Source: Candidatus Levyibacteriota bacterium
Lineage (GTDB): Bacteria > Patescibacteriota > Microgenomatia > Levybacterales > GWA1-39-11
Length of the DNA stretch: 64,000 nucleotides
NCBI GenBank assembly: GCA_050255815.1
Contig: JBLMVJ010000019.1
Span: forward strand, 26 to 64,025
Direction: 5' to 3'
Part shown: positions 2,034 to 53,189 of the stretch, one piece after another
How positions within the stretch are numbered: position 1 is the stretch's first letter
How the letters are laid out: each line of letters opens with the position of its first letter
The notes under the pieces: model-generated
Told to the model about the DNA's origin: nothing
Databases searched by the model: none
The model's input: the letters and a program-made list of their open reading frames with translations, nothing else
Program-made: the position numbers and the translations under genes

Positions 2034-3218
2034 TTATTGTACGTTTACGTCCGTTCCTGTGGGAAGCACTTCAAACCAAATCCGTCCGCGGTCAAATTTC
2101 ACTTCCTGGCCTCCTGCAGTTATCTTCAAATGAGCAGTCCTGTTTGCTTTAGACCAGGTAGCCTGCGTTTCTTTCCCATCCATAAATACTATCGCCTTTC
2201 CGGTACCCTTATCTCCATAGAGTAAATGCAGGTTATTCTCATACCCATCATCCGCATTATTTTCCCTCATAAACAGGACCACCACGTTTTTAGTAGAAAG
2301 CTGGGTATTATTATCTTTATCCAAATGCTTTACGCCGCCATTAAATCGAGCGTATGTGTTAGTAACTTTGTCGTACACCCACTTCACTCCATAAGCGGTG
2401 TAGTCTTTCCAAAAGTCAAAAGAAACTGTTTGTGCAGCCGGCCTTTCAGCATTTGCTGCATCATCCTTAAAGGTGTATGGGGTAAAGTCAGTATCCCAGG
2501 ACACTCCTTTTTTATCTACGTTGGTTAGGCCTCTGTCAGCACCAATTTTCCAAAGATTTTGAGTTGTTGAATACATGGTGTGCTCCGTTGCAACCGGATG
2601 CCCTAAGCGGTCCGGATCACGCCAGTATGTAGGAAATCCTATGGCAAATTGGTTTAAATCATTGTATAAACTCCAACCGTAGGTGTCTATTTGCCCCAGT
2701 GCGTCTGCCGGTCCTGGCATATTTGCACCGCCTACATGCGCATAAAGAGGGCTATCACCGTATTCAGAAATAAAGTCCACAAAATAGGTCCTGGCAGAGC
2801 GTACCGGACCTACCGTTCCGGCATCCTGACAATAAAACACAACCAAGAAACGGGTAATACCGCCTTCCGCTACTGCTTCATACACTATATCTGAAGAGGA
2901 AATGCCTGATTGGGGACGGGCGTCTTCATGGTTTTCTATCATAACCCCCAACGGCCTATGCTTCTCCCACCACTGCCGCTGCTGACTGGAATACATAGCT
3001 CCATTCAGCGGACAAGCCTCTGTCTTAGGGAGGGCATCATCAAACACTACTTTCCCGTCTTTGCTGCCACCTACAACTTTTGGCTGGGCAACCGGTGTTT
3101 TAACTATCCCGGTAGACTGCAGGATTGAGGTGTTTGCAAACACAAAATAAGAAATCAGCGCAGAAACCACAAACAAACCAACAGAGATAAGAATTATATT
3201 TTTTTGGGTCTTCTTCAT
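2034..3218 (-). CDS. DUF3048-like secreted/membrane-anchored protein
   Basis: 394 aa with N-terminal TM/signal. Segment RPLGVMIENHEDARPQSGISSSDIVYEAVAEGGITRFLVVF matches the DUF3048 (YerB-like) signature as I recall it. Confidence 0.6.
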   Translation of the reverse strand: MKKTQKNIILISVGLFVVSALISYFVFANTSILQSTGIVKTPVAQPKVVGGSKDGKVVFDDALPKTEACPLNGAMYSSQQRQWWEKHRPLGVMIENHEDARPQSGISSSDIVYEAVAEGGITRFLVVFYCQDAGTVGPVRSARTYFVDFISEYGDSPLYAHVGGANMPGPADALGQIDTYGWSLYNDLNQFAIGFPTYWRDPDRLGHPVATEHTMYSTTQNLWKIGADRGLTNVDKKGVSWDTDFTPYTFKDDAANAERPAAQTVSFDFWKDYTAYGVKWVYDKVTNTYARFNGGVKHLDKDNNTQLSTKNVVVLFMRENNADDGYENNLHLLYGDKGTGKAIVFMDGKETQATWSKANRTAHLKITAGGQEVKFDRGRIWFEVLPTGTDVNVQ

Positions 3219-3276
3219 TTTTTATTTTTCGAGCTTCATTGAAATAAAAATACAAATCAAGTCCTCAAGTGAGAAA

Positions 3277-3334
3277 AATACCGGGAGTCTCTGGCAAGTC
3301 CCGACGTGTCGGGGCACGCCAAGAGTTAACGGTA
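3277..3334. repeat. Bipartite conserved intergenic element, copy 1 (22-nt AATACCGGGAGTCTCTGGCAAG + 18-nt variable + 18-nt CGCCAAGAGTTAACGGTA)
   Basis: Exact 22-nt and 18-nt flank matches to copy 2 at 17303-17360. Variable 18-nt core forms hairpin CCCGAC-gt-GTCGGG. Flanks can pair (CUCUGGC / GCCaAGAG). Upstream TTTTTCGAGC box at 3225-3234 is also shared. Confidence 0.5.
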
Positions 3335-3341
3335 AATTTTC

Positions 3342-3803
3342 CTACAACCTTTTTGCGCTCTTCAGGGCCTGCTCTTCCTCTTTTGATAACTCATAATCTC
3401 CACCTTTCCCTCTTACCACATTTTTTGCATACCATCTGGTACCGCTTCTGGTATGTAAACTTGAAATAAGGACACCGGTATCATTTGCGTCAACCAAAGC
3501 CAAAATAAAACTCTGGTCACCACCGGTATCCTTAAACGGATTAAAACGCAAAAGGCCTACCTTTTGGATATGAAGAAGGCCTTCTTTTTCTAGTTTATCA
3601 CACGTCTTCACCAAAAGGTCAAGAGTTTTTTTCATCTCCTGCTGGTCTGAGGTAAAAGCATCTAAAAATTTCACCAAAGATTCTTTTTTACCTCCTTTAA
3701 CTAACCGGGAATAATAGGTATAAAACTGGAAGAAGAGGAAACTTAAAATGGCGTTCCAAACAAGAAAAACGGCAAAAATAATGAGAATAAGTGGACTGGG
3801 CAT
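3342..3803 (-). CDS. DUF4446-like small membrane-anchored protein
   Basis: 153 aa with N-terminal TM helix then soluble domain. Family call is from memory of the DUF4446 shape, so weak. Confidence 0.5.
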   Translation of the reverse strand: MPSPLILIIFAVFLVWNAILSFLFFQFYTYYSRLVKGGKKESLVKFLDAFTSDQQEMKKTLDLLVKTCDKLEKEGLLHIQKVGLLRFNPFKDTGGDQSFILALVDANDTGVLISSLHTRSGTRWYAKNVVRGKGGDYELSKEEEQALKSAKRL

Positions 3804-4674: not shown

Positions 4675-6222
4675 GTGGAAATTGCAGAAATACCACCTCT
4701 TAAACCAGATCCTCTCTATAAAGAGCATCAACCGATTCCTCTGAAAGGCAGAATAATAACGTCTATCCATGGTCATGAAATAACACAGGACACCTCCCTC
4801 CCCTTTAGGGGTTTCACTGAAAACGACCCTGACCATCCAGTATTTTCTGTTGCTGCTCACGATCCTGCAGCCACTTCTGGAATGGTTCTTGAGCAAGTAA
4901 GTAGACATCATGGTAGAGCTTTGGAAGTAAAATATGGAGAAAAACCAATTGCTCTGTGGTCGGATAATGAAGGGTTTATATATGGTTCTCTCAATCTAAA
5001 AGGGAATAATTTTACAGATCCTCACGTTGAGAAAGACAAACACTTCCAGAGCGGTTTTAAAACGATTGGGCTCCAAGAAGGAATTGTCATATGGGATACG
5101 ATAAAAGCATCAGAAGCTATGAGGAAAGCTGGGGTTGAAACAGAAAAAACAGAGGCTGTAGTCCTTTTAGAAGAAGGTATACAAAACGGAGAAGCAGTAC
5201 CAATGGATAAATTTAAAAAAGGACTATTAACGCGTGCTCTTTCGGATTCCCAACGGAAAGATATGTCTCCTTTTGGAGAACGTTCACTTCCTGAACTCAG
5301 CGACATTGCTCGTCTTCAAACATACGTGAGTCAGGCTGAATTCTATATTACTCAACGAGCACTTCAGGTACCTGAACGGTTAAGAGATTTAAAAGAGGTA
5401 AAAACAAAAGAAGGATTTGAAAAACTTATGAGAAGAGTGTTTGCGTTTGTAAATGCACGCGAGAAAATTGAGGCAAAAAGAGAAGGAAGAGAGCCTCAAG
5501 TTTTCAATGCTCTGAATCCGGAGGACATAAATAGCTACTTTGGCACTTTTCTTCCTCAAAGGATGGCAAAAAACATTGGCCGCATGCATGTTGCCGGATT
5601 AACACACCATTTTCTAACTGACCATAATGTTTCTTTGGCCGGAAGCATCTATGACTTAGACAGTATGACAGGGGAAGCATTGGGAGATAAAGGAATTCCA
5701 ACTCCTAAGGAAGACCTCAATGAATTAATAGGTAATCTTATAGACGTATATGGCTTATCTGGAAATAAGGTAAAATCAGGAAGCTATTTTAGCAATGTAA
5801 TAGGACCAGACGTTGCGGATCAATTCTTTGACGCATTTATCCCTAGTTATCTTGATACTGTCTGGAGTACATTTGATATTCAGGAAGAAAAAACCAGATT
5901 AACAGAAGAAATAAGACAAGGAGTGCCTGAGATAATGAAAGAATTTCCTGGAAAATCCAAAGATGAGGTAAGAAAAATATTACATGAAGAAGATGCTGAC
6001 CTTGTTATGAATGAGATTAAAGAGTGTGTACGTCTTGATATAGCCTTATGGATAAGTAAATTTTTTGATAATAAATCTATTGTTGAAAACCAATTACGAA
6101 ACATGGCACAGATAAAAGCACAATCAACAATAGCAATGTTAGGTGAAGAATACTTTCAAAACCTTAGAGAAAAATTCATAAATCTTGATGACTCTCCAGT
6201 TGAGGATTCTACAGATTCATAA
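4675..6222 (+). CDS. Hypothetical soluble acidic protein (515 aa), no recognisable family
   Basis: Long uninterrupted ORF. First in-frame start is GTG at 4675 (no ATG until codon ~68, no SD). Converges on the ArnT-like gene with a 5-nt gap. Confidence 0.6.
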   Translation: MEIAEIPPLKPDPLYKEHQPIPLKGRIITSIHGHEITQDTSLPFRGFTENDPDHPVFSVAAHDPAATSGMVLEQVSRHHGRALEVKYGEKPIALWSDNEGFIYGSLNLKGNNFTDPHVEKDKHFQSGFKTIGLQEGIVIWDTIKASEAMRKAGVETEKTEAVVLLEEGIQNGEAVPMDKFKKGLLTRALSDSQRKDMSPFGERSLPELSDIARLQTYVSQAEFYITQRALQVPERLRDLKEVKTKEGFEKLMRRVFAFVNAREKIEAKREGREPQVFNALNPEDINSYFGTFLPQRMAKNIGRMHVAGLTHHFLTDHNVSLAGSIYDLDSMTGEALGDKGIPTPKEDLNELIGNLIDVYGLSGNKVKSGSYFSNVIGPDVADQFFDAFIPSYLDTVWSTFDIQEEKTRLTEEIRQGVPEIMKEFPGKSKDEVRKILHEEDADLVMNEIKECVRLDIALWISKFFDNKSIVENQLRNMAQIKAQSTIAMLGEEYFQNLREKFINLDDSPVEDSTDS

Positions 6223-6227
6223 ACCTT

Positions 6228-7904
6228 CTAGAAATCACACGTCTTTCCGGGAGAACATGTAAGGCTTTTTGCAATGTGGATAAGACGGTATACTTTCAAT
6301 ACTGACACATTCCACTCCCCGGCAATCTCTGCCTGTCCAAATCCTGCCACCTCCCATAAAGGATACCCCAACGGATGGCACGGCACTGATTCGCACACAA
6401 TCAACAGCTGGTCTGTTATAGTTTTTCTTTCAGGGTCTGCACCTGGAAATTGAATAGTTACCGGCGGCTTATTTACCCGTTCAAAAAAGAACCTATACGC
6501 AAAATCAGAATTGCCTCCACTGGAAATTACTGCAAAGTTATAGGGCTTTCCGCCGGTTTTTGCTAATACAAACTCTGAGATATCCTGCACCTGCTTCAGC
6601 TGGTCATTTGGCGTGGAAGTTCTGGGGTATGAAAAAAGGGTATTAAAAAGAGACGGGTTGTATCCTATATAATCTTGTGGGAATGTAATTGGTCTAAAAT
6701 ATATATTCAGCCAAATTCCAAAAGCCACTAATACCAGCACCGAAACGACCACAATTCTTCCTTTTTTCAATAATGGTGATAACAGTGAAGCTAATAAGAT
6801 AAAGGGGACCGGAAAAACTATGCCCAGGTAATAATCATAGATAGATTTTTTATAAAAGCCAAACAGAAAGACAGTCAACATCAACCACAAGACAAGCAGA
6901 AGGGAAAAATACATATTTTTTTCTTTCTTCCTGTAGCTATGAACTATTTTGATTATGATATAAACCAGTGATCCAATACCTATAAGATAAGCTGCTAATG
7001 ACCAGATAGAAATAATATTGGATGAAAAGAAATGCATGTCTTCAGGCTTTGGAAAAGATAGTAAAAGCCTTCCAAAAATCCTTAAGAACACATCCTGGGC
7101 AGTTGCCATAAATTTAGTATTGTTTCCGGTATCTCCTGAGGTAAAAACAAAGGTGAGGATACTTCTTATATTTGGAAATCCATGGCGTACTTCAAATGCC
7201 AGGAAAGGTGACCAGCCCACTAATGTCCCCAGGGCAAATAGCACATACCTCATGAGAAGAGTAAGAATGCGGTGACTCAATTGCGTTTTTGTTTGAACAA
7301 AAGTTGTAGCTAAAAGGTAAAAGAATACCACTACCCCCAAAAAAGTAGATAGATAATGCAGCTGCAGTAAGATGCCAAAAAGTACACCTGCTAACATCAA
7401 TTTTGGAACGGATTTATTCATGACGGCATGGGACAAAAGGTACATCATAAGAAGAGAAAAGAACGGCACTACGTTGGGATTCCAGGAGGAACGGGAATAG
7501 GTTATAACTAACGGCGATATTGCATATAATAATGAAGCTATCAACGCTGGTATGTATCCAAAGTTATCTTTTGTAATCTGATACACCAGCCAAACAGTAG
7601 CAATCCCTACTAAAGCAACCATGACTGCCGGTCCCACCGGATTATAATTAAATAACCATAAAAACGGTGCCATGAAGTAATAATAGATAGGACCCAGAAA
7701 AAATCCGCCTACAGAAGCAGTGGGGCCCAGAAGCGTCAAGTCCCCCCGTAAAATATGCATTGCAACCAGTACGTCCCGCCCTTCATCCCCCAAAAAAGTC
7801 AGATAAGCACCTATGCGGTAGAAACGCATAAAAGCAGCAAGAAAAAGAACTAGGATGATGGGAATATTTTCTTTTTTAATAATGGATCTTAACAAATTCA
7901 GCAT
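6228..7904 (-). CDS. GT-C fold glycosyltransferase, ArnT/PMT (GT39/GT83) family
   Basis: ~11 TM N-terminal region with early FLGDEGRD (DE motif) typical of ArnT/PMT_2 polyprenyl-phosphate-sugar transferases. Start moved to MLNLLRSII (7904), 14 nt after the upstream stop; the track ORF extends to 7964. Confidence 0.8.
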   Translation of the reverse strand: MLNLLRSIIKKENIPIILVLFLAAFMRFYRIGAYLTFLGDEGRDVLVAMHILRGDLTLLGPTASVGGFFLGPIYYYFMAPFLWLFNYNPVGPAVMVALVGIATVWLVYQITKDNFGYIPALIASLLYAISPLVITYSRSSWNPNVVPFFSLLMMYLLSHAVMNKSVPKLMLAGVLFGILLQLHYLSTFLGVVVFFYLLATTFVQTKTQLSHRILTLLMRYVLFALGTLVGWSPFLAFEVRHGFPNIRSILTFVFTSGDTGNNTKFMATAQDVFLRIFGRLLLSFPKPEDMHFFSSNIISIWSLAAYLIGIGSLVYIIIKIVHSYRKKEKNMYFSLLLVLWLMLTVFLFGFYKKSIYDYYLGIVFPVPFILLASLLSPLLKKGRIVVVSVLVLVAFGIWLNIYFRPITFPQDYIGYNPSLFNTLFSYPRTSTPNDQLKQVQDISEFVLAKTGGKPYNFAVISSGGNSDFAYRFFFERVNKPPVTIQFPGADPERKTITDQLLIVCESVPCHPLGYPLWEVAGFGQAEIAGEWNVSVLKVYRLIHIAKSLTCSPGKTCDF

Positions 7905-15544: not shown

Positions 15545-15719
15545 TTTTTAAAAACTTACTTTTTAAACCAAATAAATGGTTTTTAAAAAATATGTTGAGG
15601 CTCCGGTTGTTCCGAGACTAAACGAGGAACAAACAGGAGTTGAACATATTTTTGTAAATCACGAGTACATGTGTATCAAAAGCTCTTGATACCATCGGTA
15701 CCTCTGGTACCCTTTTACC

Positions 15720-16955: not shown

Positions 16956-17267
16956 TCAGTATTCCGGTTCTACAACTTCCCCCACCGGCTTTCCATTTAC
17001 GGAAACAGAAATCCCAAAAGCCAGTGCATTAGCTATAGCTGCTCCCACCCGTAACCCGGTAAAAGAACCTGGCCCTGTATTTATTTCAATAGCTTTAATT
17101 TCTTCAAGTTTTAAATCTTGTCCTTTTAATATTCTGTCTATAAGCTTTAACACATTTTGGTCACCCGGAGCTCTCCTCTCCTCCTCAAGTTTTAAATCTT
17201 GTCCCTCTTTTTCAAGAACAACTAAAGTCTTTAAATTATTTGACGTGTCTATCCTAAGCGTATTCAT
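16956..17267 (-). CDS. tsaB: Minimal TsaB (YeaZ) N-terminal-domain-only protein, 103 aa
   Basis: INTGPGSFTGLRVGAAIANALAFG is the YeaZ/TsaB signature. Lacks the C-terminal half. Contains an internal duplication GQDLKLEE x2 (24-bp DNA direct repeat). Confidence 0.6.
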   Translation of the reverse strand: MNTLRIDTSNNLKTLVVLEKEGQDLKLEEERRAPGDQNVLKLIDRILKGQDLKLEEIKAIEINTGPGSFTGLRVGAAIANALAFGISVSVNGKPVGEVVEPEY

Positions 17268-17302
17268 ACTTTATGCTCTATTTTTCGAGCTCTCCCTCGA
17301 AG

Positions 17303-17360
17303 AATACCGGGAGTCTCTGGCAAGCGAGGAAGTTTCCGAGCGCGCCAAGAGTTAACGGTA
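17303..17360. repeat. Bipartite conserved intergenic element, copy 2
   Basis: Identical 22-nt and 18-nt flanks to copy 1, with an 18-nt variable core of the same length. Preceded by TTTTTCGAGC at 17281-17290. Starts 9 nt after the tsaC stop and ends ~36 nt upstream of the tsaB start. Confidence 0.5.
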
Positions 17361-17369
17361 TACCTGATA

Positions 17370-17951
17370 CTAAATACTTATTTTTATTGCTCCCTCCCTA
17401 ATCTTCTTCCATGGTGTCACCGTTGTATCAATAATAGTGGATTCTTTCTTATACGTACATTCACCTTCCATCACATAATCCGCCTTTTTCAAAACCTGCC
17501 TGTTTACATCTTGAATAGTATAAGGAGTAATTCCCCCTGAAATGTTAGCAGATGTGGCAATGATAGGAACCCCTACAGCTGTTATTATGTTTTGCAATTC
17601 CGCATGCTTTGGCCATCTTACAGCAAGAATGTCCGTATTTCCTGTTACTAATCCCGAAACTTTCCCCAGTTTTGTTTTAAAGAAAATGCTCAATCCTCCC
17701 GGCCAATATATATCTATAAGTTTTGTTTTTACCTCTTCCGGAATAGCCACATACTGTTCTGCCATTTCCTCACTATCCACCAACACCAAAAGCGCATTAT
17801 CAAAAGACCTTTGTTTTATTTCAAAAATCCTCCGCACTGAAGCTTCATTATCCATTCTACATCCAATTCCCACTGCAGTATCCGTAGGAAAAACAACAAT
17901 CCCACCGTTTTTAAAGACTTCGATTGTTTTGTGAACATTATCGTATTTCAT
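17370..17951 (-). CDS. tsaC: L-threonylcarbamoyladenylate synthase (YrdC/Sua5 domain)
   Basis: VVFPTDTAVGIGC hallmark of YrdC-fold TsaC. 193 aa. Confidence 0.9.
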   Translation of the reverse strand: MKYDNVHKTIEVFKNGGIVVFPTDTAVGIGCRMDNEASVRRIFEIKQRSFDNALLVLVDSEEMAEQYVAIPEEVKTKLIDIYWPGGLSIFFKTKLGKVSGLVTGNTDILAVRWPKHAELQNIITAVGVPIIATSANISGGITPYTIQDVNRQVLKKADYVMEGECTYKKESTIIDTTVTPWKKIREGAIKISI

Positions 17952-36891: not shown

Positions 36892-39360
36892 CTACCGGAG
36901 TGTTGCACCCCCTACTATATCTGTTCCCCCTCTAATAACCACATCCTTTATTATAGTTGTCACTTTTGGATATGACCTATATGCATCAAGAGCTGACCCG
37001 TCACCATTAAAAATGGCTAGGCAAAAAGTTCTTGGATAAGAATCGTCCGTATTGTCAATTAATGAAAAATCAAATAACCCTGCATTATTATTTGCTAGTG
37101 TATTTTGGTGGTTGGTTATGTCTTCAGAATTATCACTTAACCATGTTTCAATATAGTCTTCTAAAATAGTTATATACCCGCTGTCGGAAGGGTCATTGCC
37201 TGATGATGAGATGAATGCATTATTTCCCCCGGATGAAGGATTAGGGTTATAAGCAATAGGTGTTCCATTGGCTATAGTGTCAACCGGACTATAAACTCCA
37301 TCGACACAATCTCCACTTACCGGCAACTCTGCATACTCTAACATCCAATCACCAGAATCAACCGCAAGTGTAGTACCTGAAGGACTATCCACATCTAAAA
37401 GCATTCTCAACCTGAAGGCTTTGCTTGGAGCATTTAACGTGGCAGGTGTATTTGCTGCAACATATGGATCAGAAGGATTGGGCCCATCAATATTTTCAAA
37501 AAACCGGTATCCTCCCTGGGACACAGATATTTGCGGGTTAAATGAAACAATCAGATTATCGCAGGTACCGCCTCCTGCATTATAAGTAACAGCGTCAGCT
37601 GTGGAAACCGGAGGATTATTGACAACTTCAGACCAGCTGCTATCAAATGTCCCACTGGATCCATTAAAACTTGAGGCTGAGTCGGTATAAGCCGAATGAG
37701 CTGTAACTGTCCGGGTTGAGGTTGCTGAAAATGCGGAGATAACCAGCACATCCGGATTGCTTGGTGTTAAGTTGGGGTTTGTGTTTTGATGAGCCCCGTT
37801 ATTACAAGTAGTAGATGCATTTAATCTGTTTCTTCTGTCTCTCACTGAACTGGTAGAATTACCGGAAAATTCCAAAGCCTGGACAGCAATAACCCCTGAT
37901 GAAGACGTAGAACAAGTAACGGTCGTTGACAATCCGGTGGGAGCAACTCTATAGTACATATAAATTCTTGGGCCTGAAGAATTATTGTAAGCAGAAGTCC
38001 ACCCGCTCTGGCTTGAAAATGAACTATTAGTAGTGCGGTAACAGATTTTGATAACTAAGTTATTTCTGGTAATTGGATTTGGCAATACGGCACTTACTGA
38101 CCTTCCGGAAGTAGTATTGTGCGCCTCCTGCACAAATTGGAAAATTGAGTCGGATGCAATTTTCCAAGCTTTTCCTTCACTGTAATTACCAATACGCAAT
38201 GGGCCTACTATATAAAATTCCGGGGATACCCTGGGAAAATGAATAGTATAGCGCAGAGTATATTTTTTTCCCTTTCGCCAGTCTACTTCCCATTGAACAG
38301 TTTTGTACTCATTCCCTTCAATCACTCTACCAAAGTTTCCTATATTAGAAATTGAAAAGCTTTCGGGCACGTAATCAGACACAATCCCTTTATAATCATT
38401 ACCCGGTATTATTACTGACTCTACCGGATAATCAACTGCAGGATAAATTCTTGTTGGAAAAAAACGCTCTATATTAAAGGCCGGATTCTCTTCTACGGTA
38501 AATGATGAATGAATACTCCTTTTCCCAAAAACGCTTTCTGCTTCCATGGTTAGTGTATATGTTCCTAATTCTTGTGCCTTAATCCCTGAATAAAAATCAG
38601 GCTTATTAGTGACTGAACGGTCTGCACATTCATTACTTCCCTTAATTGACCCATCCGTAGTCGACTGTTTTGTTATCTTCCCACTGGGACTCTCAATAGT
38701 CAGCCATATATGCGCTGTATTAAACTGGAGTTTTTCTCCGGCTATGCATTTTGTGTCCCCTAAGTCTCCCAAAACAACCATTCCAAGCTCAACTTGCTCT
38801 CCTTGCTTATAAACTGCCTTGTTTGTATTCACTGCTAGTACCCCCCAGGTAAAATCCTGGGATATAATTATGTCTTCATCATTAACTGACCTAACTTTTA
38901 CATGCAGGCTATACATACCGGGCTGGATACTATTCTGTGAAGGAGGTGAAAGCAAAAGAAGTTTGGACTGTAAATTCATTTTTTTATCTAAATCAATTTT
39001 TATATCCGCTTTAGTATTTTCAATATAAGCCTCAACGGATCCCTGCCTTTTTTCCTGGCTTAAGCTCCAAAAAGAAGAATATTTAGTACCTGAAAGGTTA
39101 ACCTCAAACTGGGGACGTGAAGTCAGTTTTATATCAAAGGCTTCAATTTTTCCTTGATCTGGATTTATTTTAATTACCTGTTTTGATTGGGGGATATAAG
39201 CTTTTGGTTTTGTTGTTTCCTTATGAAAGGAAAGGGTATAAAAAAAAACGAAAAAACAGGAAAAAATTATAGTAACTATTAAAATTGAAATCAGGTTTAC
39301 CTTATGCCTGCCTAAAAACTTTCCCACAAGCACATAATATTCCCTATGGTGGTGAGTCAA
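36892..39360 (-). CDS. Large membrane-anchored extracellular protein (822 aa), Ser/Thr/Asn-rich
   Basis: N-terminal TM anchor then long beta-rich low-complexity extracellular region. No catalytic motif recognised. Confidence 0.6.
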   Translation of the reverse strand: MTHHHREYYVLVGKFLGRHKVNLISILIVTIIFSCFFVFFYTLSFHKETTKPKAYIPQSKQVIKINPDQGKIEAFDIKLTSRPQFEVNLSGTKYSSFWSLSQEKRQGSVEAYIENTKADIKIDLDKKMNLQSKLLLLSPPSQNSIQPGMYSLHVKVRSVNDEDIIISQDFTWGVLAVNTNKAVYKQGEQVELGMVVLGDLGDTKCIAGEKLQFNTAHIWLTIESPSGKITKQSTTDGSIKGSNECADRSVTNKPDFYSGIKAQELGTYTLTMEAESVFGKRSIHSSFTVEENPAFNIERFFPTRIYPAVDYPVESVIIPGNDYKGIVSDYVPESFSISNIGNFGRVIEGNEYKTVQWEVDWRKGKKYTLRYTIHFPRVSPEFYIVGPLRIGNYSEGKAWKIASDSIFQFVQEAHNTTSGRSVSAVLPNPITRNNLVIKICYRTTNSSFSSQSGWTSAYNNSSGPRIYMYYRVAPTGLSTTVTCSTSSSGVIAVQALEFSGNSTSSVRDRRNRLNASTTCNNGAHQNTNPNLTPSNPDVLVISAFSATSTRTVTAHSAYTDSASSFNGSSGTFDSSWSEVVNNPPVSTADAVTYNAGGGTCDNLIVSFNPQISVSQGGYRFFENIDGPNPSDPYVAANTPATLNAPSKAFRLRMLLDVDSPSGTTLAVDSGDWMLEYAELPVSGDCVDGVYSPVDTIANGTPIAYNPNPSSGGNNAFISSSGNDPSDSGYITILEDYIETWLSDNSEDITNHQNTLANNNAGLFDFSLIDNTDDSYPRTFCLAIFNGDGSALDAYRSYPKVTTIIKDVVIRGGTDIVGGATLR

Positions 39361-39376
39361 TCTGTATAAAGTTGGC

Positions 39377-40666
39377 TCAATTTGACCGGATGAGGTGAGT
39401 AAGAACAGGGTTTATCTGATACGTTTTGTTTTGGACTACTATTAGTTTTTTTCCGAGTTTTGCATATACTTTTCTGTTAATTTTCACCATAGCGTCATAT
39501 ACCTGTCTCCAGTTTTTCCCCTGGTCATTATCCCCAAAAATATCTAATAGCTCATCAGTTTCAAAACGTCTTGCCGGTTTTTTAATAAGAGTTGTAAGTA
39601 AATAATACTGGTTGGTAGCATAAGGAATTTTTATTTCCGTCTCTGCCAGATTTAATATTCCCGTCTTGCCGGAAAAAGAAATATTGCTGGGCATAGTAAC
39701 TAATTTAGTATTTCTTTTTAGTTGAGATCCATATATCAAAAATGTAGCAACAACTAGCAAGCTAATTCCTAAAACGCTTTGCAATTTTATATATTCTAAA
39801 ACAAGGGAAAATATAGGGGAAAGATTTTCTCCAATTATTAAAATGCCTATAGGTGTATTATTTTTCTTAAGCACCTCTGTCTTTAATGCATACCATTCAC
39901 CGGTTGCTTTATCCCTCATGATCCTATCCTTGGCAGCACTAAATTCACGTTTCACATAACTGGGGTCAATAAAACTGGAAATCCTTCTCAGATTTGTTAC
40001 ATTAGTACTTTTTTTGAGGATAGCATTGTATTTATCAACTACAAGAAAGGCAACATCTGTGGGTAATTTCCGCTCATCTATCTTACTAACTTCTATAATT
40101 GAATTCTTCACCGTAATTTTTGAAAAAATTTTCTCCTTTGTCTCCCTTAATTTTGTGTCAATCTCATCAAGAATTTGCATAGGAGGATTTGTATAAGAAA
40201 CTGCAATCACCCCTATTGTCTTCCCATTATCCCTGATAGGCTCAGAATATATCCTTCTCTCTTGGTTTGTAATAGTATTGATTGTTTGTGGTTTTGTATA
40301 ATTTAGTAATAATTTAAAATCGGCGGTGTCAAGAAAGCCATGAATTGGACTTCTTCTGTCTATCACGAAACCTTCAGTAGAAATAAAGTACAGGGGAAAA
40401 CTTGCTAATAATGTAGGGTCTGAATTATAAAGAGAAAGATTCCATTTGCTATTATTAGTAAACACCGCATCTTTTTTTATCTGTGCTACCTTTACTGACA
40501 GCCGGTTTTTAATTACTCCGTATTCTATGCCGGCAATAATTACCATACTTAACAGTAGTTCTAAACAGAAAAGGAAAAGAGGGATTCTCAGGTATGCCAT
40601 GAATGCCTTTGAGGAAAAAGGTGATTCCATAATGCATGGCAGATTATAGTAGAAATAACTCAACAA
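39377..40666 (-). CDS. Membrane-anchored OmpR/PhoB-type winged-helix transcriptional regulator with extracytoplasmic sensor domain
   Basis: TM1 (~aa 25-50), ~250-aa extracytoplasmic domain, TM2, then C-terminal ILNLAETEIKI..YYLLTTLIKKPARRFETDELLDIFGD..WRQVYDAMVKINRKVYAKLGKKLIVVQNKTYQIN matching the Trans_reg_C pattern. No receiver or kinase domain. Confidence 0.6.
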   Translation of the reverse strand: MLSYFYYNLPCIMESPFSSKAFMAYLRIPLFLFCLELLLSMVIIAGIEYGVIKNRLSVKVAQIKKDAVFTNNSKWNLSLYNSDPTLLASFPLYFISTEGFVIDRRSPIHGFLDTADFKLLLNYTKPQTINTITNQERRIYSEPIRDNGKTIGVIAVSYTNPPMQILDEIDTKLRETKEKIFSKITVKNSIIEVSKIDERKLPTDVAFLVVDKYNAILKKSTNVTNLRRISSFIDPSYVKREFSAAKDRIMRDKATGEWYALKTEVLKKNNTPIGILIIGENLSPIFSLVLEYIKLQSVLGISLLVVATFLIYGSQLKRNTKLVTMPSNISFSGKTGILNLAETEIKIPYATNQYYLLTTLIKKPARRFETDELLDIFGDNDQGKNWRQVYDAMVKINRKVYAKLGKKLIVVQNKTYQINPVLTHLIRSN

Positions 40667-40803
40667 TGGAAGGCTGCACCTTATTTGGTACTTTTGATTC
40701 TGTTTCCAAAGTAATGGCCATAGGGGGATTATAGTACAAATTAAGCTTTGGGGAAATTATTGAGATATTACAGTTACTGCAGATAAAGCTGCCTTTAATG
40801 AAT

Positions 40804-42567
40804 TTAGGGCGAAAAGATTGCGCCCCACTCAACCGCGGTAAATCCTGATCTTTTAACTGGATTTTCTTTTCTGGGAAAAGGAACTTGAATAAGACTTTTC
40901 AAAGGTTTGAAATAAAGTTCTACCCGCAAAAGAACATCCGGTTTTGGCGTGATAGTTAACGGGTATATTTCAGAGATAGTTTGTTGGGTTAAATTTGACA
41001 CAAAGTAATAGGGAGATTCTGGCAGCTTTGTTTTCCAGAAGGAAATAAATTCATTTGCTTCTGACTCTGTTAGCCCCAGCTCTTTCACATAGTCTTTTGA
41101 AAAAGTAAACAAGCTCCTAAATGGTATTACGTAGCCACCATCCGGCTGAGGCACAGAAAGTAAAGCTTCATAATATAAATAATCTAAAGAATTATTAATT
41201 CTTCCATTTGGTGAAGCGGCTACTTCCCAACCATAGGCTTTTGAATTATAGAGGCTGTCTGTTTTTATCAAGCTCCCTTGCGGATGGATTTCAACCTGTA
41301 CCCGTTCTGTTTTTGGGGGATATAAATAAATAGCAGGTTTACCTCCATAAACTGTAGGCATAGTAGCATAGTAGCCAACTGCAGAATATTTTTGCCACGT
41401 GCCATTTTGCTTTATATAAACTTCATTTCGAGTTGTTTTTAACAAGTTAACGTTCCATTTGTCTTTTGACCAAAGGGCAGTAGGATTAGAAGCTTTCCCG
41501 TATACGTCAACTGCAAAAGGCTGGATGTCTGTATTATCTCCCCGGACGTAATAGGGCTGGGTCATTCCCGGACCATCTTCCTGAGTGTTAACACAATTCA
41601 TATGCCACATAGCAGTAGTATTTTTTTCAAATCCTCCCCATGAGTCCTTTGTTCCTATAATAGGTGTTACCGTCTTAGAAAAAGTTGAAGAATCAGAAAA
41701 AGCCTCTCCAGACTTCACATAATTCACCATAAATCCTCTATTTGTATCAGGGGAACTGGCTACTGGCTGCAACTTGGCGGCAACGTTTGGGGTGTACGGC
41801 CAATAACTTTCTACCGGATCCTTTCCGTCTGAATCGTGGTATGTAGAAAGAGTAAAATTATCCGGGAATGTTTTTAACGGAACCAGGGCAGGGGCTGTAC
41901 ACGTAGAAACCACCTCAAGGGGCCTCACACTATCCGCCATTTTTTGTGCAATCTCTTCTGCATTTGTAAGAAAGTATCCATGGGTTTGGAAGGCTTGAGT
42001 ATCTACCTTTACCTGGTATTTCAAGCCATATACCTTAAACTCCTTAACAATATCTCCAGGTTTAGTATACGTAGGATCAGTGTCTCCCACGCTTATCATT
42101 CCATCCATAAAGGGTTTATTTTTATCATAACTTTTATCTAATACATTAAAGTTTATGCAGTTCCAAAATCCTCCGCCTGAAGGACATTCTGAAGCAGTCC
42201 AGGTATCCGGATAATCAATCTCATATCCACCATATGAAAATTGGTACGTTTTCCAGGTGGTTATAGGGGGAAGCGGCATTTTATCAGGTAGAGGCACGGT
42301 AGGAGCTGGCATGCTGGGAATCATACTGGGAAAGATGCTGGGAAACGGTGGCAAAGACGGCATTGAGTTTTGGGTAAGTGTTTTTTTCTGGGGGACCTTA
42401 TCAAGTGAGAAAAGAAGATAAACGCAAAGTCCCAAAGCCAGGAAAAGAAAAACAAGTAAGACTATAGCAAATTTCTTTTTGGGTTTTTTAGGTGGGATAA
42501 CTGGAGCAGTAGGTTCTTGGATTTCAGGAACAACCGGAAGAGGAAGTTTAGTTTCTTCTTTGGGCAT
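40804..42567 (-). CDS. Membrane-anchored Pro-rich extracellular protein (587 aa)
   Basis: Pro-rich N-terminus, one TM, large extracellular domain. No family recognised. Confidence 0.55.
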   Translation of the reverse strand: MPKEETKLPLPVVPEIQEPTAPVIPPKKPKKKFAIVLLVFLFLALGLCVYLLFSLDKVPQKKTLTQNSMPSLPPFPSIFPSMIPSMPAPTVPLPDKMPLPPITTWKTYQFSYGGYEIDYPDTWTASECPSGGGFWNCINFNVLDKSYDKNKPFMDGMISVGDTDPTYTKPGDIVKEFKVYGLKYQVKVDTQAFQTHGYFLTNAEEIAQKMADSVRPLEVVSTCTAPALVPLKTFPDNFTLSTYHDSDGKDPVESYWPYTPNVAAKLQPVASSPDTNRGFMVNYVKSGEAFSDSSTFSKTVTPIIGTKDSWGGFEKNTTAMWHMNCVNTQEDGPGMTQPYYVRGDNTDIQPFAVDVYGKASNPTALWSKDKWNVNLLKTTRNEVYIKQNGTWQKYSAVGYYATMPTVYGGKPAIYLYPPKTERVQVEIHPQGSLIKTDSLYNSKAYGWEVAASPNGRINNSLDYLYYEALLSVPQPDGGYVIPFRSLFTFSKDYVKELGLTESEANEFISFWKTKLPESPYYFVSNLTQQTISEIYPLTITPKPDVLLRVELYFKPLKSLIQVPFPRKENPVKRSGFTAVEWGAIFSP

Positions 42568-50091: not shown

Positions 50092-51543
50092 TTATTCTTC
50101 TGGGGATTTTTTATCCGGTTTCAATGTGGGGAAAAAAACCATTTCCCGGACAGGCTTATCTATCAAAAGGGCAAAAAGTCTTTCAGAAACACCAAATCCG
50201 GCTGCCGGGGGCATACCATACTCTAATGCTTCTACAAAATCCTCATCCATCATTTGGGCTTCCTCATCCCCGGCTTCGCGCAGTTTCATTTGTTCTTCAA
50301 ACCGCTCCCGCTGGTCTATAGGGTCATTTAGCTCTGAAAATCCTTTACCCAGCTCTGAACCCATAGCCAGAACCTGCATACGCTGTACATTCTGGGGTCT
50401 GTCAGGCAAACGTTTTGCAAGAGGTTCAACTTCAACCGGGTGGTTGAGTACAAACATAGGCTGGACAAGTTTTGGCCTGATTGTCTTTTTATATAAATAA
50501 TCAAGAAGTCTACCCTTCCCTAAATTTGGCTCTACCTTTACATGCTTTTCATCCGCTAACTTATATAAATCTTCTACTGACAATTCTTCTATATGTATCT
50601 GCCAATGTTCATTTAATAATTCCGCGTAGTCTTTTCTGGGCCAGTTTCCTTCCCAGTTAATCTCCTGCCCATTCCACTGGGTTTTTAAACTTCCAAAAGT
50701 CTCCTGGATTACCTTTTTATACATATCTTCTACAAAATCCATGAGTTCAGAATAATCCGCATATGCCCAATAGAATTCCAGTTGGGTATAATCCTGCAAA
50801 TGCTCATCATCTATTCCCTCATTCCTAAATATTCTGCCTATTTCAAATACCTTTTCAAATCCGCCAACCAAGAGCCTTTTAAGTGGTAATTCTAGTGAGA
50901 TGCGAAGATATAAATCCATATCCTGGGCATTATGGTGGGTAACAAAGGGTCTGGCGTCAGCTCCTCCAGGAATTTGCTGTAAAACCGGCGTCTCAACTTC
51001 TAAAAATCCATGATCCACCATGTAATTTCTGATGCTTTGCCAGAATTTTGTTTTCTTTTTGAAATCATCCTTTACCTCAGGGTTCATCAAAAGATCCAGA
51101 TATCTTTTTCTAAGACGGGTTTCTACATCCTTTAAACCGTAAAACTCTGAAGGGAGAGGTAATAAGGATTTAGTAAGAAGCTGCCAGGAAGCCGGCATAA
51201 TAGAAATTTCTCCAGCTATGGTTTTCCCAACTTCACCTTCTACCTGGATAAAGTCACCTATATCTAAAAGCCTGAGGTTTTTAAAACCTTCCGGCCCCAG
51301 TATTTTTTTTTGGAAGAAAATTTGTATCTTTCCACTCTCATCTTTCAGGTCTGCAAAGGCAATATTACCATGCTCTCTATAGGAAAAAATCCTACCAGTG
51401 ACCGCTACGTTCTTTCCCTCTGAATCCAAAGCCTGGGCAACAGAATGAGTTCTTTTAGTTGTAGCAGGGTAGGGGTCTATCTGTAATTCTTTTAGTTTCT
51501 CTAATTTTTCTAATCGCGCTTTTTTAAAGTTCTGTTCGTCCAT
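50092..51543 (-). CDS. lysS: Lysyl-tRNA synthetase, class II
   Basis: N-terminal OB anticodon-binding domain, class II motifs (FRNEGIDDEHL.., ..GGFGVSERLFALL). 483 aa. Confidence 0.93.
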   Translation of the reverse strand: MDEQNFKKARLEKLEKLKELQIDPYPATTKRTHSVAQALDSEGKNVAVTGRIFSYREHGNIAFADLKDESGKIQIFFQKKILGPEGFKNLRLLDIGDFIQVEGEVGKTIAGEISIMPASWQLLTKSLLPLPSEFYGLKDVETRLRKRYLDLLMNPEVKDDFKKKTKFWQSIRNYMVDHGFLEVETPVLQQIPGGADARPFVTHHNAQDMDLYLRISLELPLKRLLVGGFEKVFEIGRIFRNEGIDDEHLQDYTQLEFYWAYADYSELMDFVEDMYKKVIQETFGSLKTQWNGQEINWEGNWPRKDYAELLNEHWQIHIEELSVEDLYKLADEKHVKVEPNLGKGRLLDYLYKKTIRPKLVQPMFVLNHPVEVEPLAKRLPDRPQNVQRMQVLAMGSELGKGFSELNDPIDQRERFEEQMKLREAGDEEAQMMDEDFVEALEYGMPPAAGFGVSERLFALLIDKPVREMVFFPTLKPDKKSPEE

Positions 51544-51934: not shown

Positions 51935-51961
51935 GTTTATCACCTCCTTTTTTCAGTTTTT

Positions 51962-52056
51962 AGCCATATTCTCCTTGTTCATGTGTCTAAAAACCGTTGG
52001 TTTTTAGCCATATTCTCCTTGTTCATGTGTCTAAAAACCGTTGGTTTTTAGCCATA
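51962..52056. repeat. 44-bp tandem direct repeat (2.2 copies) carrying duplicated SD+ATG mini-ORFs on the minus strand
   Basis: Unit AGCCATATTCTCCTTGTTCATGTGTCTAAAAACCGTTGGTTTTT at 51962-52005 and 52006-52049, with partial AGCCATA at 52050-52056. Minus strand reads AAGGAGAAT-ATGGCTAAAAACCAACGGTTTTTAGACACATGA (MAKNQRFLDT*) twice, then MAKN*. Confidence 0.8.
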
Positions 52057-52190: not shown

Positions 52191-53189
52191 TCAAGTTTTC
52201 TTTTCAAACCGGCTCATTAGTTCATATGCCTCATCTTTTATTTCTTCTGTCACCTCAAGCCTTACCATTCCTGCCCCCGGCTGCCCATAAAAAATGGTAA
52301 AGCCAAGAGGAGCGCAGAGTAGGGCAGGCAAAACAGCAAGATCCTCTTCCCCTTCTACAATAATCACTACCCTAGGCCCTCTCTCGCCCGGGAAGAAAGC
52401 TTGGGATGATTGCCTAAGAACTTTACGGATGGCTTTCGTTAGCTCTGAACTTACATTGCCTGCCGTATTTACTACCTTTATTTTTTCAGACGGTGGAAAC
52501 TCCCCTTCCGGAATTTCTTTGCGCTCTACTTTGTTATCAATAATTGCCAACTGAGGAAAAATTTCCGCATCCAGAAATGTTTTTGTGGTCCTATCACCTA
52601 CGGTTATTAATTTTTTAGAATTTATCCGGGGAGGTTCTGTAATGATTTCTCCCCAAATATCCTGTAGTTTTTTGCGTAGGGTAGAGGGGAGTAGAAAAGT
52701 ACTTTCCAACCATTCCTGTTTTACAAATATCCGCCCTGCTCTGTTAATTTCCCCATTCCTTATTCTGGTAGAGGTTATTGGTTCACCATCTTCTGCTAGG
52801 GTTAATTGAAAAATCTCCAGCGGCAATTCAGGCATACCCTCCTCTACCCTTTTTTTATTTACCCCTCTACCCGCTTCTTCCGTTGCCGTGGTTACCGCTA
52901 GGGAATCGAATTTATAGGCAGGATTCAGCGTAGGGCCAAAGTGGTCATCTAGGGAAACAATTTCTATATCCTCTGCTCTCCCTGTGCTTTTTAAAAAGGC
53001 TTCAAGGGCATGCAGCCGGATATCATATGCTTCAACTCCTAAGCCTCCTTTATACGCATTAATATAGGTATCAGAAGTTAACCCAAGCACAACTTTTTCG
53101 CCTAGGCTTACTATAAAATTAAGAAAATCTTTGTGTCCTTGGTGGAGCCGGTCAAATGTGCCGCCTGCAGCTACTAAATGATATGCCAT
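52191..53189 (-). CDS. Fused archaeal-type phosphopantetheine adenylyltransferase (N) + GTP-dependent dephospho-CoA kinase DUF359 (C)
   Basis: N-terminal cytidylyltransferase motif AAGGTFDRLHQGH. C-terminal ITVGDRTTKTFLDAEIFPQLAIIDNKVERKE...VVIIVEGEEDLAVLPALL matches the DUF359 dephospho-CoA kinase pattern (vGDvvt..ivDgk..R). Confidence 0.7.
   Translation of the reverse strand: MAYHLVAAGGTFDRLHQGHKDFLNFIVSLGEKVVLGLTSDTYINAYKGGLGVEAYDIRLHALEAFLKSTGRAEDIEIVSLDDHFGPTLNPAYKFDSLAVTTATEEAGRGVNKKRVEEGMPELPLEIFQLTLAEDGEPITSTRIRNGEINRAGRIFVKQEWLESTFLLPSTLRKKLQDIWGEIITEPPRINSKKLITVGDRTTKTFLDAEIFPQLAIIDNKVERKEIPEGEFPPSEKIKVVNTAGNVSSELTKAIRKVLRQSSQAFFPGERGPRVVIIVEGEEDLAVLPALLCAPLGFTIFYGQPGAGMVRLEVTEEIKDEAYELMSRFEKKT

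What the first reader, a model, noticed from the sequence alone, without database searches (positions are those of the whole stretch)
3225..3334. Conserved bipartite 58-nt element (two copies) with fixed-length variable core, placed just after stop codons
Copies at 3277-3334 and 17303-17360 share an exact 22-mer (AATACCGGGAGTCTCTGGCAAG) and an exact 18-mer (CGCCAAGAGTTAACGGTA). These are separated by an 18-nt core of completely different sequence but identical length. In copy 1 the core is a perfect 6-bp hairpin. The conserved flanks can pair with each other (CUCUGGC with GCCaAGAG) to give an outer stem enclosing the core. Both copies are preceded by TTTTTCGAGC (3225-3234 and 17281-17290). Each starts 7-9 nt after a minus-strand stop codon (DUF4446, tsaC) and sits 40-110 nt upstream of the next minus-strand start (DUF3048, tsaB). 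No reading frame with a start codon is conserved, so this is probably a structured RNA motif, a REP/MITE-like repeat, or a protein-binding site family.
Basis: seen in the sequence. Interest (0 to 1): 0.6.

Follow-up and report, generated by a model that had tools for sequence, protein, structure and literature searches.

The report
Interspersed hairpin repeat of Levybacteria
The two look-alike 58-base segments are copies of an undescribed short repeat, a conserved hairpin plus an A/T-rich tail, that has been inserted between neighbouring genes in some Levybacteria (ultra-small CPR bacteria); it most resembles REP or MITE-type repeats, and its function is not established.

Summary
Both exact blocks, the 18-nt cores, TTTTTCGAGC and the gene-relative positions are as described, and none is expected by chance. 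The equal core length is a coincidence: in 27 copies collected from other Levybacteria (CPR) contigs the core is about 10-31 nt.

The element is larger than reported, about 95-125 bp. It has a long imperfect hairpin (AT-rich foot, invariant internal loop, 7-bp stem with a bulged A, variable apex), usually a T-run, and a sequence-conserved tail. Six hairpin pairs show compensatory changes.

Every copy whose downstream gene could be read points the same way as that gene. Copies sit next to unrelated housekeeping genes, including inside ribosomal-protein operons.

Both window copies are insertions. Relatives have 0-12-nt spacers or a fused ORF at the same two gene junctions, and a third junction (rplK|rplA) is filled or empty in different lineages.

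At shared filled sites, synonymous sites are saturated (37% identity) while the arms are 36/38 identical.

There is no Rfam, phage, plasmid or literature match.

Best reading: a new REP/REPIN- or MITE-like non-autonomous element. It fails the strict membership tests for each known family. Sister genomes carry a RAYT-like transposase, but it is not linked to this family. RNA versus DNA function is unresolved.

The parts
3277..3336 (-). Copy 1, hairpin module. Foot T3279-G3283 pairs with C3330-A3334. Internal loop is GGAGT (3284-3288) opposite TTAA (3326-3329). Stem C3289-C3295 pairs with G3318-G3325, with A3321 bulged. The variable apex is 3296-3317. The strand given is the orientation shared with the flanking genes; which strand actually folds is unresolved.
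   Evidence: fold -29.5 kcal/mol on + and -24.9 on -; z -4.3 and -3.7; CM 73.7 bits; covariation
3219..3276 (-). Copy 1, T-run and tail (type A). Read on the minus strand it is TTTTTCTCACTTGAGGACTTGATTTGTATTTTTATTTCAATGAAGCTCGAAAAATAAAAA and ends at the ATG of the DUF3048 gene.
   Evidence: The same tail type occurs in L002a, L031 and L024b. It is absent from the empty orthologous sites.
17303..17362 (-). Copy 2, hairpin module. The arms are identical to copy 1. The apex is GCGAGGAAGTTTCCGAGCGC, with a tandem G.A pair when read on the + strand.
   Evidence: (72.7 bits)
17268..17302 (-). Copy 2, shortened type-A tail. Read on the minus strand it is TTCTTCGAGGGAGAGCTCGAAAAATAGAGCATAAAGT and ends at the ATG of the TsaB-like ORF. 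It contains TTTTTCGAGC (17281-17290).
3342..3803 (-). Upstream gene of copy 1 (DUF4446). Its stop codon lies 7 nt from the hairpin block.
2034..3218 (-). Downstream gene of copy 1 (DUF3048). In relatives it follows DUF4446 after 5 nt, after 3 nt, or with an overlap.
17370..17951 (-). Upstream gene of copy 2 (TsaC/Sua5).
16956..17267 (-). Downstream gene of copy 2 (103-aa TsaB-like ORF). In relatives it is 12 nt from tsaC, overlaps it by 4 nt, or is fused to it.

Best explanation
The two segments are copies of a previously undescribed family of short (about 95-125 bp) interspersed intergenic elements. The family is found in part of Candidatus Levybacteria (Microgenomates, CPR/Patescibacteria).

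**Anatomy, read in the direction of the flanking genes:**
- A long imperfect hairpin: foot WATACCG/CGGTATW; an invariant asymmetric internal loop (UUAA opposite ACUCC); a 7-bp stem with one bulged base; and an apical stem-loop that is free in sequence and length.
- Usually a run of T.
- A sequence-conserved A/T-rich tail.

**Shown here:**
- It is a repeat family.
- The hairpin is maintained by compensatory changes.
- The unit is an insertion into the few-nucleotide spacers between same-strand genes, always in one orientation.
- Occupancy of a given junction differs between close relatives.
- The arms and tail are far better conserved than neutral sites.

**Inferred:**
- It is, or was, a non-autonomous mobile element of the REP/REPIN or MITE kind.
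- It is copied through recognition of the folded hairpin by an enzyme supplied in trans. A RAYT-type Y1 (HUH) transposase is the obvious candidate, because sister genomes encode one.
- Once inserted it is transcribed with the operon. The hairpin plus U-run would then act as a partial terminator or 3'-end protector, and the tail would supply restart signals, which would make insertion inside essential operons tolerable.
For: **Family.** Exact-arm scans found 5 true copies in two species-representative MAGs and 16 in metagenome contigs. The covariance model found 4 more that do not match the search pattern exactly: L002b, L024b, L045 and L048.

**Taxon.** The window is a 64,487-nt contig of a Candidatus Levyibacteriota MAG. 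The MAG labelled 'Gammaproteobacteria' has an L11 protein 93% identical to a Levyibacteriota L11.

**Hairpin.**
- 89% of cells are paired. Six pairs have changes on both sides, which 0 of 500 shuffles reached. Slid controls pair at 19-42%.
- Two of the six covarying pairs (19-53 and 20-52) vary only in copies found without the pattern.

**Insertion.**
- DUF4446|DUF3048 spacer: 5 nt in L040 (85% aa identity), 3 nt in L042, an overlap in L043/L044, against 123 nt in the window.
- tsaC|tsaB spacer: 12 nt in L046, a 4-nt overlap in L047, a fused ORF in L045, against 102 nt in the window.
- rplK|rplA: filled in L002b, L015 and L048; 4 nt in L058 (L11 94% identical to the L002 MAG); no hairpin in L051-L056.

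**Orientation.** Every copy with a readable downstream gene is co-oriented with it.

**Tail belongs to the unit.** The motif ATTAGATATNTTNTAA occurs only next to a hairpin, in 10 of 10 matches.

**Conservation.** At the orthologous filled sites L004/L026 and L005/L017, four-fold degenerate sites are 37% identical. The arms are 36/38 identical and the tails 41/50 and 30/43. The cores cannot be aligned and look specific to each source: L002a, L002b and L004, all from one MAG, share one core type, and the OBEQ metagenome contigs share another.

**Related biology in the clade.**
- A second hairpin family is nested inside a family-1 tail in L032.
- A RAYT-like Y1 transposase flanked by its own hairpins is present in sister genomes L052-L054.
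Against: - **No enzyme link.** No transposase or recombinase is linked to this family. None occurs among the 57 window ORFs. No Y1 homologue occurs in any locus that carries the family. The RAYT-like gene found is flanked by a different hairpin, and its loci have no family-1 copy.
- **Known-family features are missing.** There is no target-site duplication at the two window insertions, no GTAG head as in REPs, and no terminal inverted repeats spanning the whole inserted unit.
- **Apexes differ between the window copies.** The apexes of the two window copies differ almost completely although the arms are identical. This is not what a recent burst from one master copy gives, and it fits long-term selection on each copy.
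- **Copy density is modest.** There are 2 copies in 64 kb, and none in about 190 kb of relatives.
- **Strand signals conflict.** A tandem G.A embedded in the apical helix occurs in 13 of 24 copies on the window + strand and in 0 of 24 on the gene strand. Several A.C oppositions would be G.U pairs only on the gene strand.
- **No terminator or promoter call.** The simple scans call neither a terminator nor a sigma-70 promoter in either window copy. By eye, about a third of copies lack a clear T-run (direct reading).
Confidence: 0.55

Rival explanations
1. A host-selected structured RNA signal inside operon transcripts. The hairpin would be bound by a dedicated protein or nuclease, or would act as a factor-independent terminator or attenuator that sets transcript boundaries, stability or processing. 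The tail would re-establish expression of the next gene. On this reading the copies persist because the host needs them, not because they replicate.
For: - The arms are about 95% identical across lineages whose synonymous sites are saturated, at orthologous filled sites.
- The unpaired internal-loop bases are nearly invariant, also in three of the four copies found without the search pattern; L048 changes G10 and A62.
- Hairpin pairs covary.
- Orientation is strictly tied to the downstream gene, and the hairpin foot lies -10 to +26 nt from the upstream stop codon in 17 of 22 copies.
- A T-run follows the hairpin in about two thirds of copies (direct reading).
- A recurring tandem G.A motif sits in the apex while its neighbouring pairs vary.
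Against: - The neighbouring genes are functionally unrelated.
- Close relatives manage without the element at the same junctions.
- The tandem G.A lies on the strand antisense to the genes.
- Neither a terminator nor a promoter is called.
- The tail has no consensus structure.
- There is no Rfam match, even at E <= 10.
Confidence: 0.25
2. A portable promoter or operator cassette acting as double-stranded DNA. The tail would carry the promoter for the downstream gene. The palindromic arms would be the binding site of a global DNA-binding regulator. The cassette would have been reused in front of many genes, as described for 'mobile promoters'.
For: - The same upstream sequence stands in front of unrelated genes.
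- The tail is conserved as sequence, not as structure.
- The motif (G)GTAGTTTT lies about 9 nt before the ATG, where this window's own promoters place TGGTAnAAT (direct reading).
- A weak sigma-70-like match (TCGAAA, 16 nt, TATATT) falls in the L048 tail.
Against: - The distance between the two arms varies by about 20 bp, which does not fit a dimer binding duplex DNA.
- The hairpin pairs covary, which a duplex binding site does not require.
- No promoter is called in either window copy.
- In L016 and L002a the tail is followed by a separate promoter-like region in front of the gene.
Confidence: 0.1
3. An attC-like single-strand recombination site for a tyrosine recombinase. The architecture is the same as a folded integron attC: a paired foot, an unpaired central spacer, a second paired box with an extrahelical base, and a variable terminal structure, all placed just after the stop codon of a gene.
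For: The hairpin layout and its position right after stop codons.
Against: - The foot is WATACCG/CGGTATW, not RYYYAAC/GTTRRRY (direct reading).
- The neighbouring genes are core housekeeping genes in conserved synteny, not cassettes.
- There is no integrase in the window.
- The inserted unit is the hairpin plus tail without a gene.
Confidence: 0.04
4. A local duplication, a chance similarity or an assembly artefact.
For: Only two copies occur in the 64-kb window.
Against: - Zero matches are expected by chance.
- The same arms occur in independent assemblies from NCBI, ENA, JGI and Logan.
- The copies stand next to different genes.
Confidence: 0.01

Closest known systems
REP elements and REPINs mobilised by RAYT (Y1/HUH) transposases
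   Same: - Short extragenic imperfect palindromes.
- Multiple dispersed copies.
- Hairpin stems kept while the tip varies.
- Apparently source-specific variants (one core type in one MAG, another in the OBEQ metagenome contigs).
- Long persistence.
- The clade encodes a RAYT-like protein flanked by hairpins.
   Different: - No GTAG head.
- The arms are not two copies of one REP: the two sides carry fixed, different loop sequences.
- A 35-60-nt non-palindromic tail belongs to the unit.
- Orientation is strictly tied to the downstream gene.
- Copies sit inside operons between stop and start codons.
- No cognate RAYT has been identified.
MITEs such as Correia/NEMIS elements of Neisseria
   Same: - About 100-150-bp non-coding insertions.
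- Inverted repeats that fold in the transcript.
- Insertion polymorphism between strains.
- Possible promoter or terminator effects.
   Different: - The inverted repeats do not bound the inserted unit.
- No TA or other target duplication is seen.
- No parent IS is known.
- The interior (apex) is the least conserved part instead of being uniform among copies.
MIRUs (mycobacterial interspersed repetitive units) and similar intercistronic repeats (recalled from my own knowledge, not tested here)
   Same: Both sit in the spacers between genes of an operon, in the orientation of the genes, abutting or overlapping the stop and start codons.
   Different: MIRUs are tandem direct repeats with small overlapping ORFs. 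This element is a single hairpin plus tail without a conserved ORF.
Integron attC sites
   Same: The folded architecture (paired foot, unpaired spacer, second stem with an extrahelical base, variable tip) and the position after stop codons.
   Different: No AAC/GTT core, no cassette arrays, no integrase; the neighbours are housekeeping operons.
Putative mobile promoters (PMC3575422)
   Same: A homologous upstream sequence stands in front of unrelated genes.
   Different: Promoter activity is not shown here, and the most conserved part is a hairpin upstream of any promoter-like sequence.

Membership tests
REP / REPIN (RAYT-associated) | Short imperfect palindrome repeated in extragenic space | tested here: met
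   27 copies, all intergenic. Density is modest: 2 per 64 kb in the window.
REP / REPIN (RAYT-associated) | Conserved GTAG-type tetranucleotide at the head of the palindrome | tested here: not met
   The foot is WATACCG and the preceding bases are not conserved (direct reading).
REP / REPIN (RAYT-associated) | A cognate RAYT gene flanked by the same repeat | tested here: inconclusive
   No Y1 domain occurs in the window or in family-1 loci. A RAYT-like gene in sister genomes is flanked by a different hairpin. Whole genomes could not be searched.
MITE | Terminal inverted repeats bounding the inserted unit | tested here: not met
   Comparison of empty and filled sites shows that the insert is the hairpin plus a 35-58-nt tail. 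The tail end (…GCTCGAAAAAT) is not the inverse of the left end.
MITE | Target-site duplication | tested here: not met
   No direct repeat flanks either window insertion when compared with L040 or with L046/L047. Divergence limits the power of this test.
MITE | Presence/absence polymorphism at orthologous sites | tested here: met
   Three junctions.
Integron attC | R''/R' core RYYYAAC ... GTTRRRY | tested here: not met
   Direct reading of the arms. GTTAAC lies inside the 3' arm, but it has no complementary R'' partner.
Integron attC | Cassette array next to an intI gene | tested here: not met
   The neighbours are syntenic housekeeping genes, and there is no integrase in the window.
Intrinsic (Rho-independent) terminator | A stable G+C-rich stem directly followed by a U-tract | tested here: inconclusive
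   - The hairpin is stable: -20 to -28 kcal/mol on the gene strand in most copies, with two weaker at about -15.
- It is followed by TATTTT-like runs in about two thirds of copies.
- The foot is AU-rich, and the scan calls no terminator.
Any Rfam 15 family | Score at or above the gathering threshold | tested here: not met
   There are 0 hits in the window, only 2 tRNAs in 20 element-bearing loci, and only noise at E <= 10 around copy 1.
TIGR stem-loop arrays (TIGR-Tas) | Tandem array of units with box C/D-like motifs next to a tas gene | tested here: not met
   The copies are solitary. There is no UGAUGA/CUGA motif and no Nop-domain gene nearby (direct reading).
IS200/IS605-derived elements (PATE) | Similar subterminal hairpins at both ends | tested here: not met
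   Only one conserved hairpin is present, and the tail has no consensus structure.

The most novel reading that the evidence does not exclude
The element is not selfish DNA. On this reading it is a domesticated, portable 'gene punctuation' module of these ultra-small bacteria. A hairpin recognised by a dedicated protein would set transcript ends or processing sites, and the tail would restart expression. The module would be installed repeatedly between genes of essential operons, including ribosomal-protein operons. The near-perfect conservation of the arms across lineages with saturated synonymous sites would then reflect host-level selection on a regulon-wide signal that has no counterpart in Rfam.
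Probability: 0.22. Interest if true: 0.7.

Novelty: new variant of a known kind. Interest (0 to 1): 0.5.

Why it matters
CPR/Patescibacteria genomes are regarded as streamlined (my own knowledge), and I found no description of interspersed repeats in them in the held literature.

- **What is new.** This is a repeat family that inserts precisely between stop and start codons of essential operons. It keeps about 40 nt nearly invariant while neutral sites saturate. It coexists with at least one other hairpin family and, in sister genomes, with a RAYT-like gene.
- **If it is selfish DNA.** It documents REP/REPIN-type dynamics in a phylum where none were known, and it provides markers for strain-level genome evolution.
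- **If it is host-selected.** It would be a new cis-acting signal for transcript organisation in organisms that cannot yet be studied genetically.
- **Practical use.** The covariance model gives annotators a handle on otherwise unexplained 100-nt spacers in Levybacteria operons.

Tried and rejected
- **Known RNA families.** Rfam at gathering threshold on the window and on 20 loci, and at E <= 10 around copy 1, gave only miRNA or CRISPR-repeat noise and two tRNAs. ARAGORN found no tRNA or tmRNA in the window.
- **Coding.** The + strand ORFs over the two copies use different frames, and core lengths are not multiples of three.
- **Phage or plasmid origin.** The two viral-contig scans gave no true copy: none with the 5' arm, and 5 chance hits with the 3' arm. 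blastn against phages and plasmids gave no match.
- **Riboswitch or leader of one pathway.** Rejected, because the downstream genes are unrelated.
- **Inverted DNA-uptake sequences.** Rejected, because the two arms carry fixed, different loop sequences and neither arm occurs alone in the window.
- **Other structured-RNA motifs.** K-turn, sarcin-ricin and PyrR-binding-loop readings of the internal loop do not fit by direct reading, and Rfam gives no support.
- **TIGR stem-loop units.** No box C/D motifs and no tandem arrangement.
- **Strand assignment from wobble pairs.** Inconclusive. The tandem G.A asymmetry favours the + strand, whereas gene context favours the minus strand.
- **Structure in the tail.** RNAalifold predicts none.
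- **Consensus promoter or terminator.** Not called in the window copies.
- **Target-site duplication.** None found.
- **Transposase in the window or in family-1 loci.** None found.

Full report
**1. The observation**

Chance expectation is 0.00 and 0.02 matches. The pair is the top direct-repeat family of the window.

The 18-nt cores, the TTTTTCGAGC motif, and the stop and start distances all check. The stops are 7 and 9 nt away and the next starts 58 and 35 nt away.

Both copies fold as a long interrupted hairpin on either strand. The z-scores are -2.5 to -4.3, and the + strand is about 3-5 kcal/mol more stable. Rfam and ARAGORN find nothing in the 64 kb.

**2. It is a family, and the core length is not fixed**

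A scan of one genome per species with a two-arm pattern returned 5 true copies. Four are in one MAG (CAZITH01) and one in another (CAZQIA01). Three further hits were chance matches. A metagenome scan returned 16 true copies and 10 chance hits. Viral contigs, phage records and plasmid records have none.

A covariance model built from 20 copies found four more that do not match the search pattern exactly: L002b, L024b, L045 and L048. It found no further copy in the window.

Cores range from about 10 to 31 nt, so the equal length of the two window copies is a coincidence.

The window is a contig of a Candidatus Levyibacteriota MAG. The element-bearing MAG labelled 'Gammaproteobacteria' has an L11 protein 93% identical to a Levyibacteriota L11.

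**3. Anatomy**

In + strand terms the hairpin has these parts:
- Foot: WATACCG paired with CGGTATW.
- Internal loop: GGAGU opposite UUAA. The position next to the foot is G.A in 15 copies, G-C in 8 and A.G in 1.
- Stem: CUCUGGC paired with GCC-A-AGAG, with one bulged A.
- Apex: a variable stem-loop.

On 24 distinct copies, 89% of cells pair. Six pairs show changes on both sides, which 0 of 500 shuffles reached, and slid controls pair at only 19-42%. Columns 10-20 and 52-60 are invariant partly by ascertainment. However, two of the six covarying pairs (19-53 and 20-52) vary only in copies found without the pattern.

The unit continues beyond the hairpin. Read in the gene direction, a T-run usually follows, and then a conserved tail of one of two types:
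- Type A (both window copies, L002a, L031, L024b): ...CTCAAGGACT...GAGCTCGAAAAAT.
- Type B (most others)...CTTAAAAACAGAAAAC..ATTAGATATTTTCTAAGGTAGTTTT, then about 9 nt, then ATG.

The type-B motif occurs only beside a hairpin, in 10 of 10 matches. It has no consensus structure, so it is a sequence signal and part of the element.

**4. Context**

Every copy whose downstream gene could be read is co-oriented with it. In 17 of 22 copies the hairpin foot lies -10 to +26 nt from the stop codon of a same-strand upstream gene. The next start codon follows 20-116 nt after the hairpin.

One copy (L006) lies between divergent genes, so the hairpin is not merely the terminator of an upstream gene.

The neighbouring genes are unrelated housekeeping genes: rplK, rplA, rplX, rpmJ, rplO, map, tsf, typA, an aminoacyl-tRNA synthetase, dnaJ, ftsX, dcd, gmd, a nucleoside phosphorylase and glycosyltransferases. 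This excludes a pathway-specific riboswitch or leader.

**5. Both window copies are insertions**

| Junction | Relatives | Window |
|---|---|---|
| DUF4446 → DUF3048 | 5 nt (L040, 85% aa identity); 3 nt (L042); overlap (L043/L044) | 123 nt |
| tsaC → tsaB | 12 nt (L046); 4-nt overlap (L047); fused ORF (L045) | 102 nt |

Gene order around both sites is otherwise conserved.

A third junction, rplK|rplA, varies between lineages:
- Filled in L002b, L015 and L048.
- A 4-nt spacer in L058, whose L11 is 94% identical to that of the L002 MAG.
- An AT-rich spacer without the hairpin in L051-L054.
- A 45-nt spacer in L055/L056.

L045 carries a copy after tsaB instead of before it. No target-site duplication is visible.

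**6. Conservation**

L004/L026 and L005/L017 are orthologous filled sites. Their flanking proteins are 64-78% identical (the short ORFs upstream of L004/L026, 46%). Four-fold degenerate sites of the downstream gene are 37% identical, which is saturated. The arms are 36/38 identical and the tails 41/50 and 30/43. The cores cannot be aligned.

Cores resemble each other within a source. L002a, L002b and L004, all from one MAG, share one core type, and the OBEQ metagenome copies share another. The arms and tail are therefore either under strong purifying selection or continually renewed from conserved masters. The apex seems to need only to pair.

**7. Which strand folds?**

This is unresolved.
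- For the + strand (antisense to the genes): an invariant G.U pair, and a helix-embedded tandem G.A in the apex of 13 of 24 copies against 0 of 24 on the other strand. Shuffled cores give a mean of 1.4 and a maximum of 5. The neighbouring pairs of that motif vary.
- For the gene strand: several A.C oppositions that would be G.U only there, plus the T-run and the whole gene context.

**8. Related things in the clade**

A second hairpin family has arms AATATGTTCAAC...CCTCAACATAT followed by a T-run. It has a copy in the window at about 15585-15653. In L032 it lies inside a family-1 tail, a nested insertion.

Sister Levybacteria (L052-L054) carry a single Y1 transposase. It matches Pfam Y1_Tnp at E 2.7e-12. 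Its best NCBIfam match is REP-associated tyrosine transposase, E 1.7e-12, below that model's cutoff. It has the HUH motif PNHIHLL. It sits in a conserved neighbourhood and is flanked on both sides by its own perfect hairpin.

Those loci have no family-1 copy, and no Y1 homologue lies in the window or in any family-1 locus. Hairpin-plus-Y1 biology therefore exists in the clade, but its link to this family is not shown.

**9. Interpretation**

The best-supported reading is a new, non-autonomous, REP/REPIN- or MITE-like interspersed element. It is probably copied through its folded hairpin by an enzyme acting in trans. It is tolerated inside operons because the hairpin, T-run and tail do not abolish expression of the downstream gene, and may reorganise it.

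The mobility mechanism, the terminator role and the promoter role are all inferences.

The main rival is a host-selected RNA punctuation signal. What favours it is the conservation pattern, the invariant loop bases and the strict orientation. What weakens it is that close relatives do without the element at the same junctions.

The element fails the defining features of REPs (GTAG head, cognate RAYT), MITEs (bounding inverted repeats, target duplication), attC sites (core sequence, cassettes), PATEs and TIGR arrays. It is absent from Rfam and from the searched literature.

I therefore file it as a new variant of the known kind 'interspersed intergenic palindromic repeats'.

Noticed in passing
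window 15585-15653 (minus strand); also L002 446-480, L032 360-396, L048 8979-9023: A second hairpin-repeat family of the same design. The arms are (A)AATATGTTCAAC ... (G)CCTCAACATAT followed by TTTT(T), around a variable hairpin core. In L032 it lies inside the tail of a family-1 element (a nested insertion). In L002 it lies directly after a family-1 tail.
   Followed up: partly
L052/L053 6183-6845 and L054 5566-6270 (sister Levybacteria): A RAYT-like Y1 (HUH) transposase of 220-234 aa sits in a conserved neighbourhood about 3 kb upstream of secE-nusG-rplK. It is flanked on both sides by the hairpin GCTAATTGAGGTGG(C/A)ACCTCAATT, in the same orientation on both sides. No other copy of that hairpin occurs in the 20-kb loci.
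   Followed up: partly
window 51956-52043: A perfect tandem duplication of a 44-nt unit (GTTTTTAGCCATATTCTCCTTGTTCATGTGTCTAAAAACCGTTG) lies in the spacer between the class II tRNA-synthetase gene (50092..51543) and the DUF359/cytidylyltransferase gene (52191..53189).
   Followed up: no
window, upstream of many start codons (e.g. 26275, 23752, 27090, 53189, 55494): TGGTAnAAT-like extended -10 boxes sit only 6-12 nt before the start codon of many genes. This suggests leaderless or very short-leader mRNAs in this organism.
   Followed up: no
window 16956-17267; P0122, P0174, P0175, P0181, P0200: The TsaB-like protein is only 103 aa. In several relatives it is fused to TsaC in one 294-317-aa ORF. 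The window ORF also contains a 23-nt internal repeat (17101-17123 and 17182-17204).
   Followed up: partly
window 36892-42567 and 4675-6222: Three consecutive large minus-strand ORFs (822, 429 and 587 aa) and a 515-aa plus-strand ORF have no Pfam match at E <= 1e-5.
   Followed up: no
L052 about 6900-7850 and L048 about 7200-7800: A region next to the RAYT-like locus that reads as more G+C-rich than its surroundings. It encodes only very short hydrophobic ORFs on the opposite strand. It is present in some of the syntenic genomes and absent in others.
   Followed up: no
L002-L006 (CAZITH01) and L003 (CAZQIA01): These MAGs are titled 'uncultured Gammaproteobacteria'. The L11 protein of CAZITH01 is 93% identical to Levyibacteriota L11, and the gene content is CPR-like, so the label looks wrong.
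   Followed up: partly
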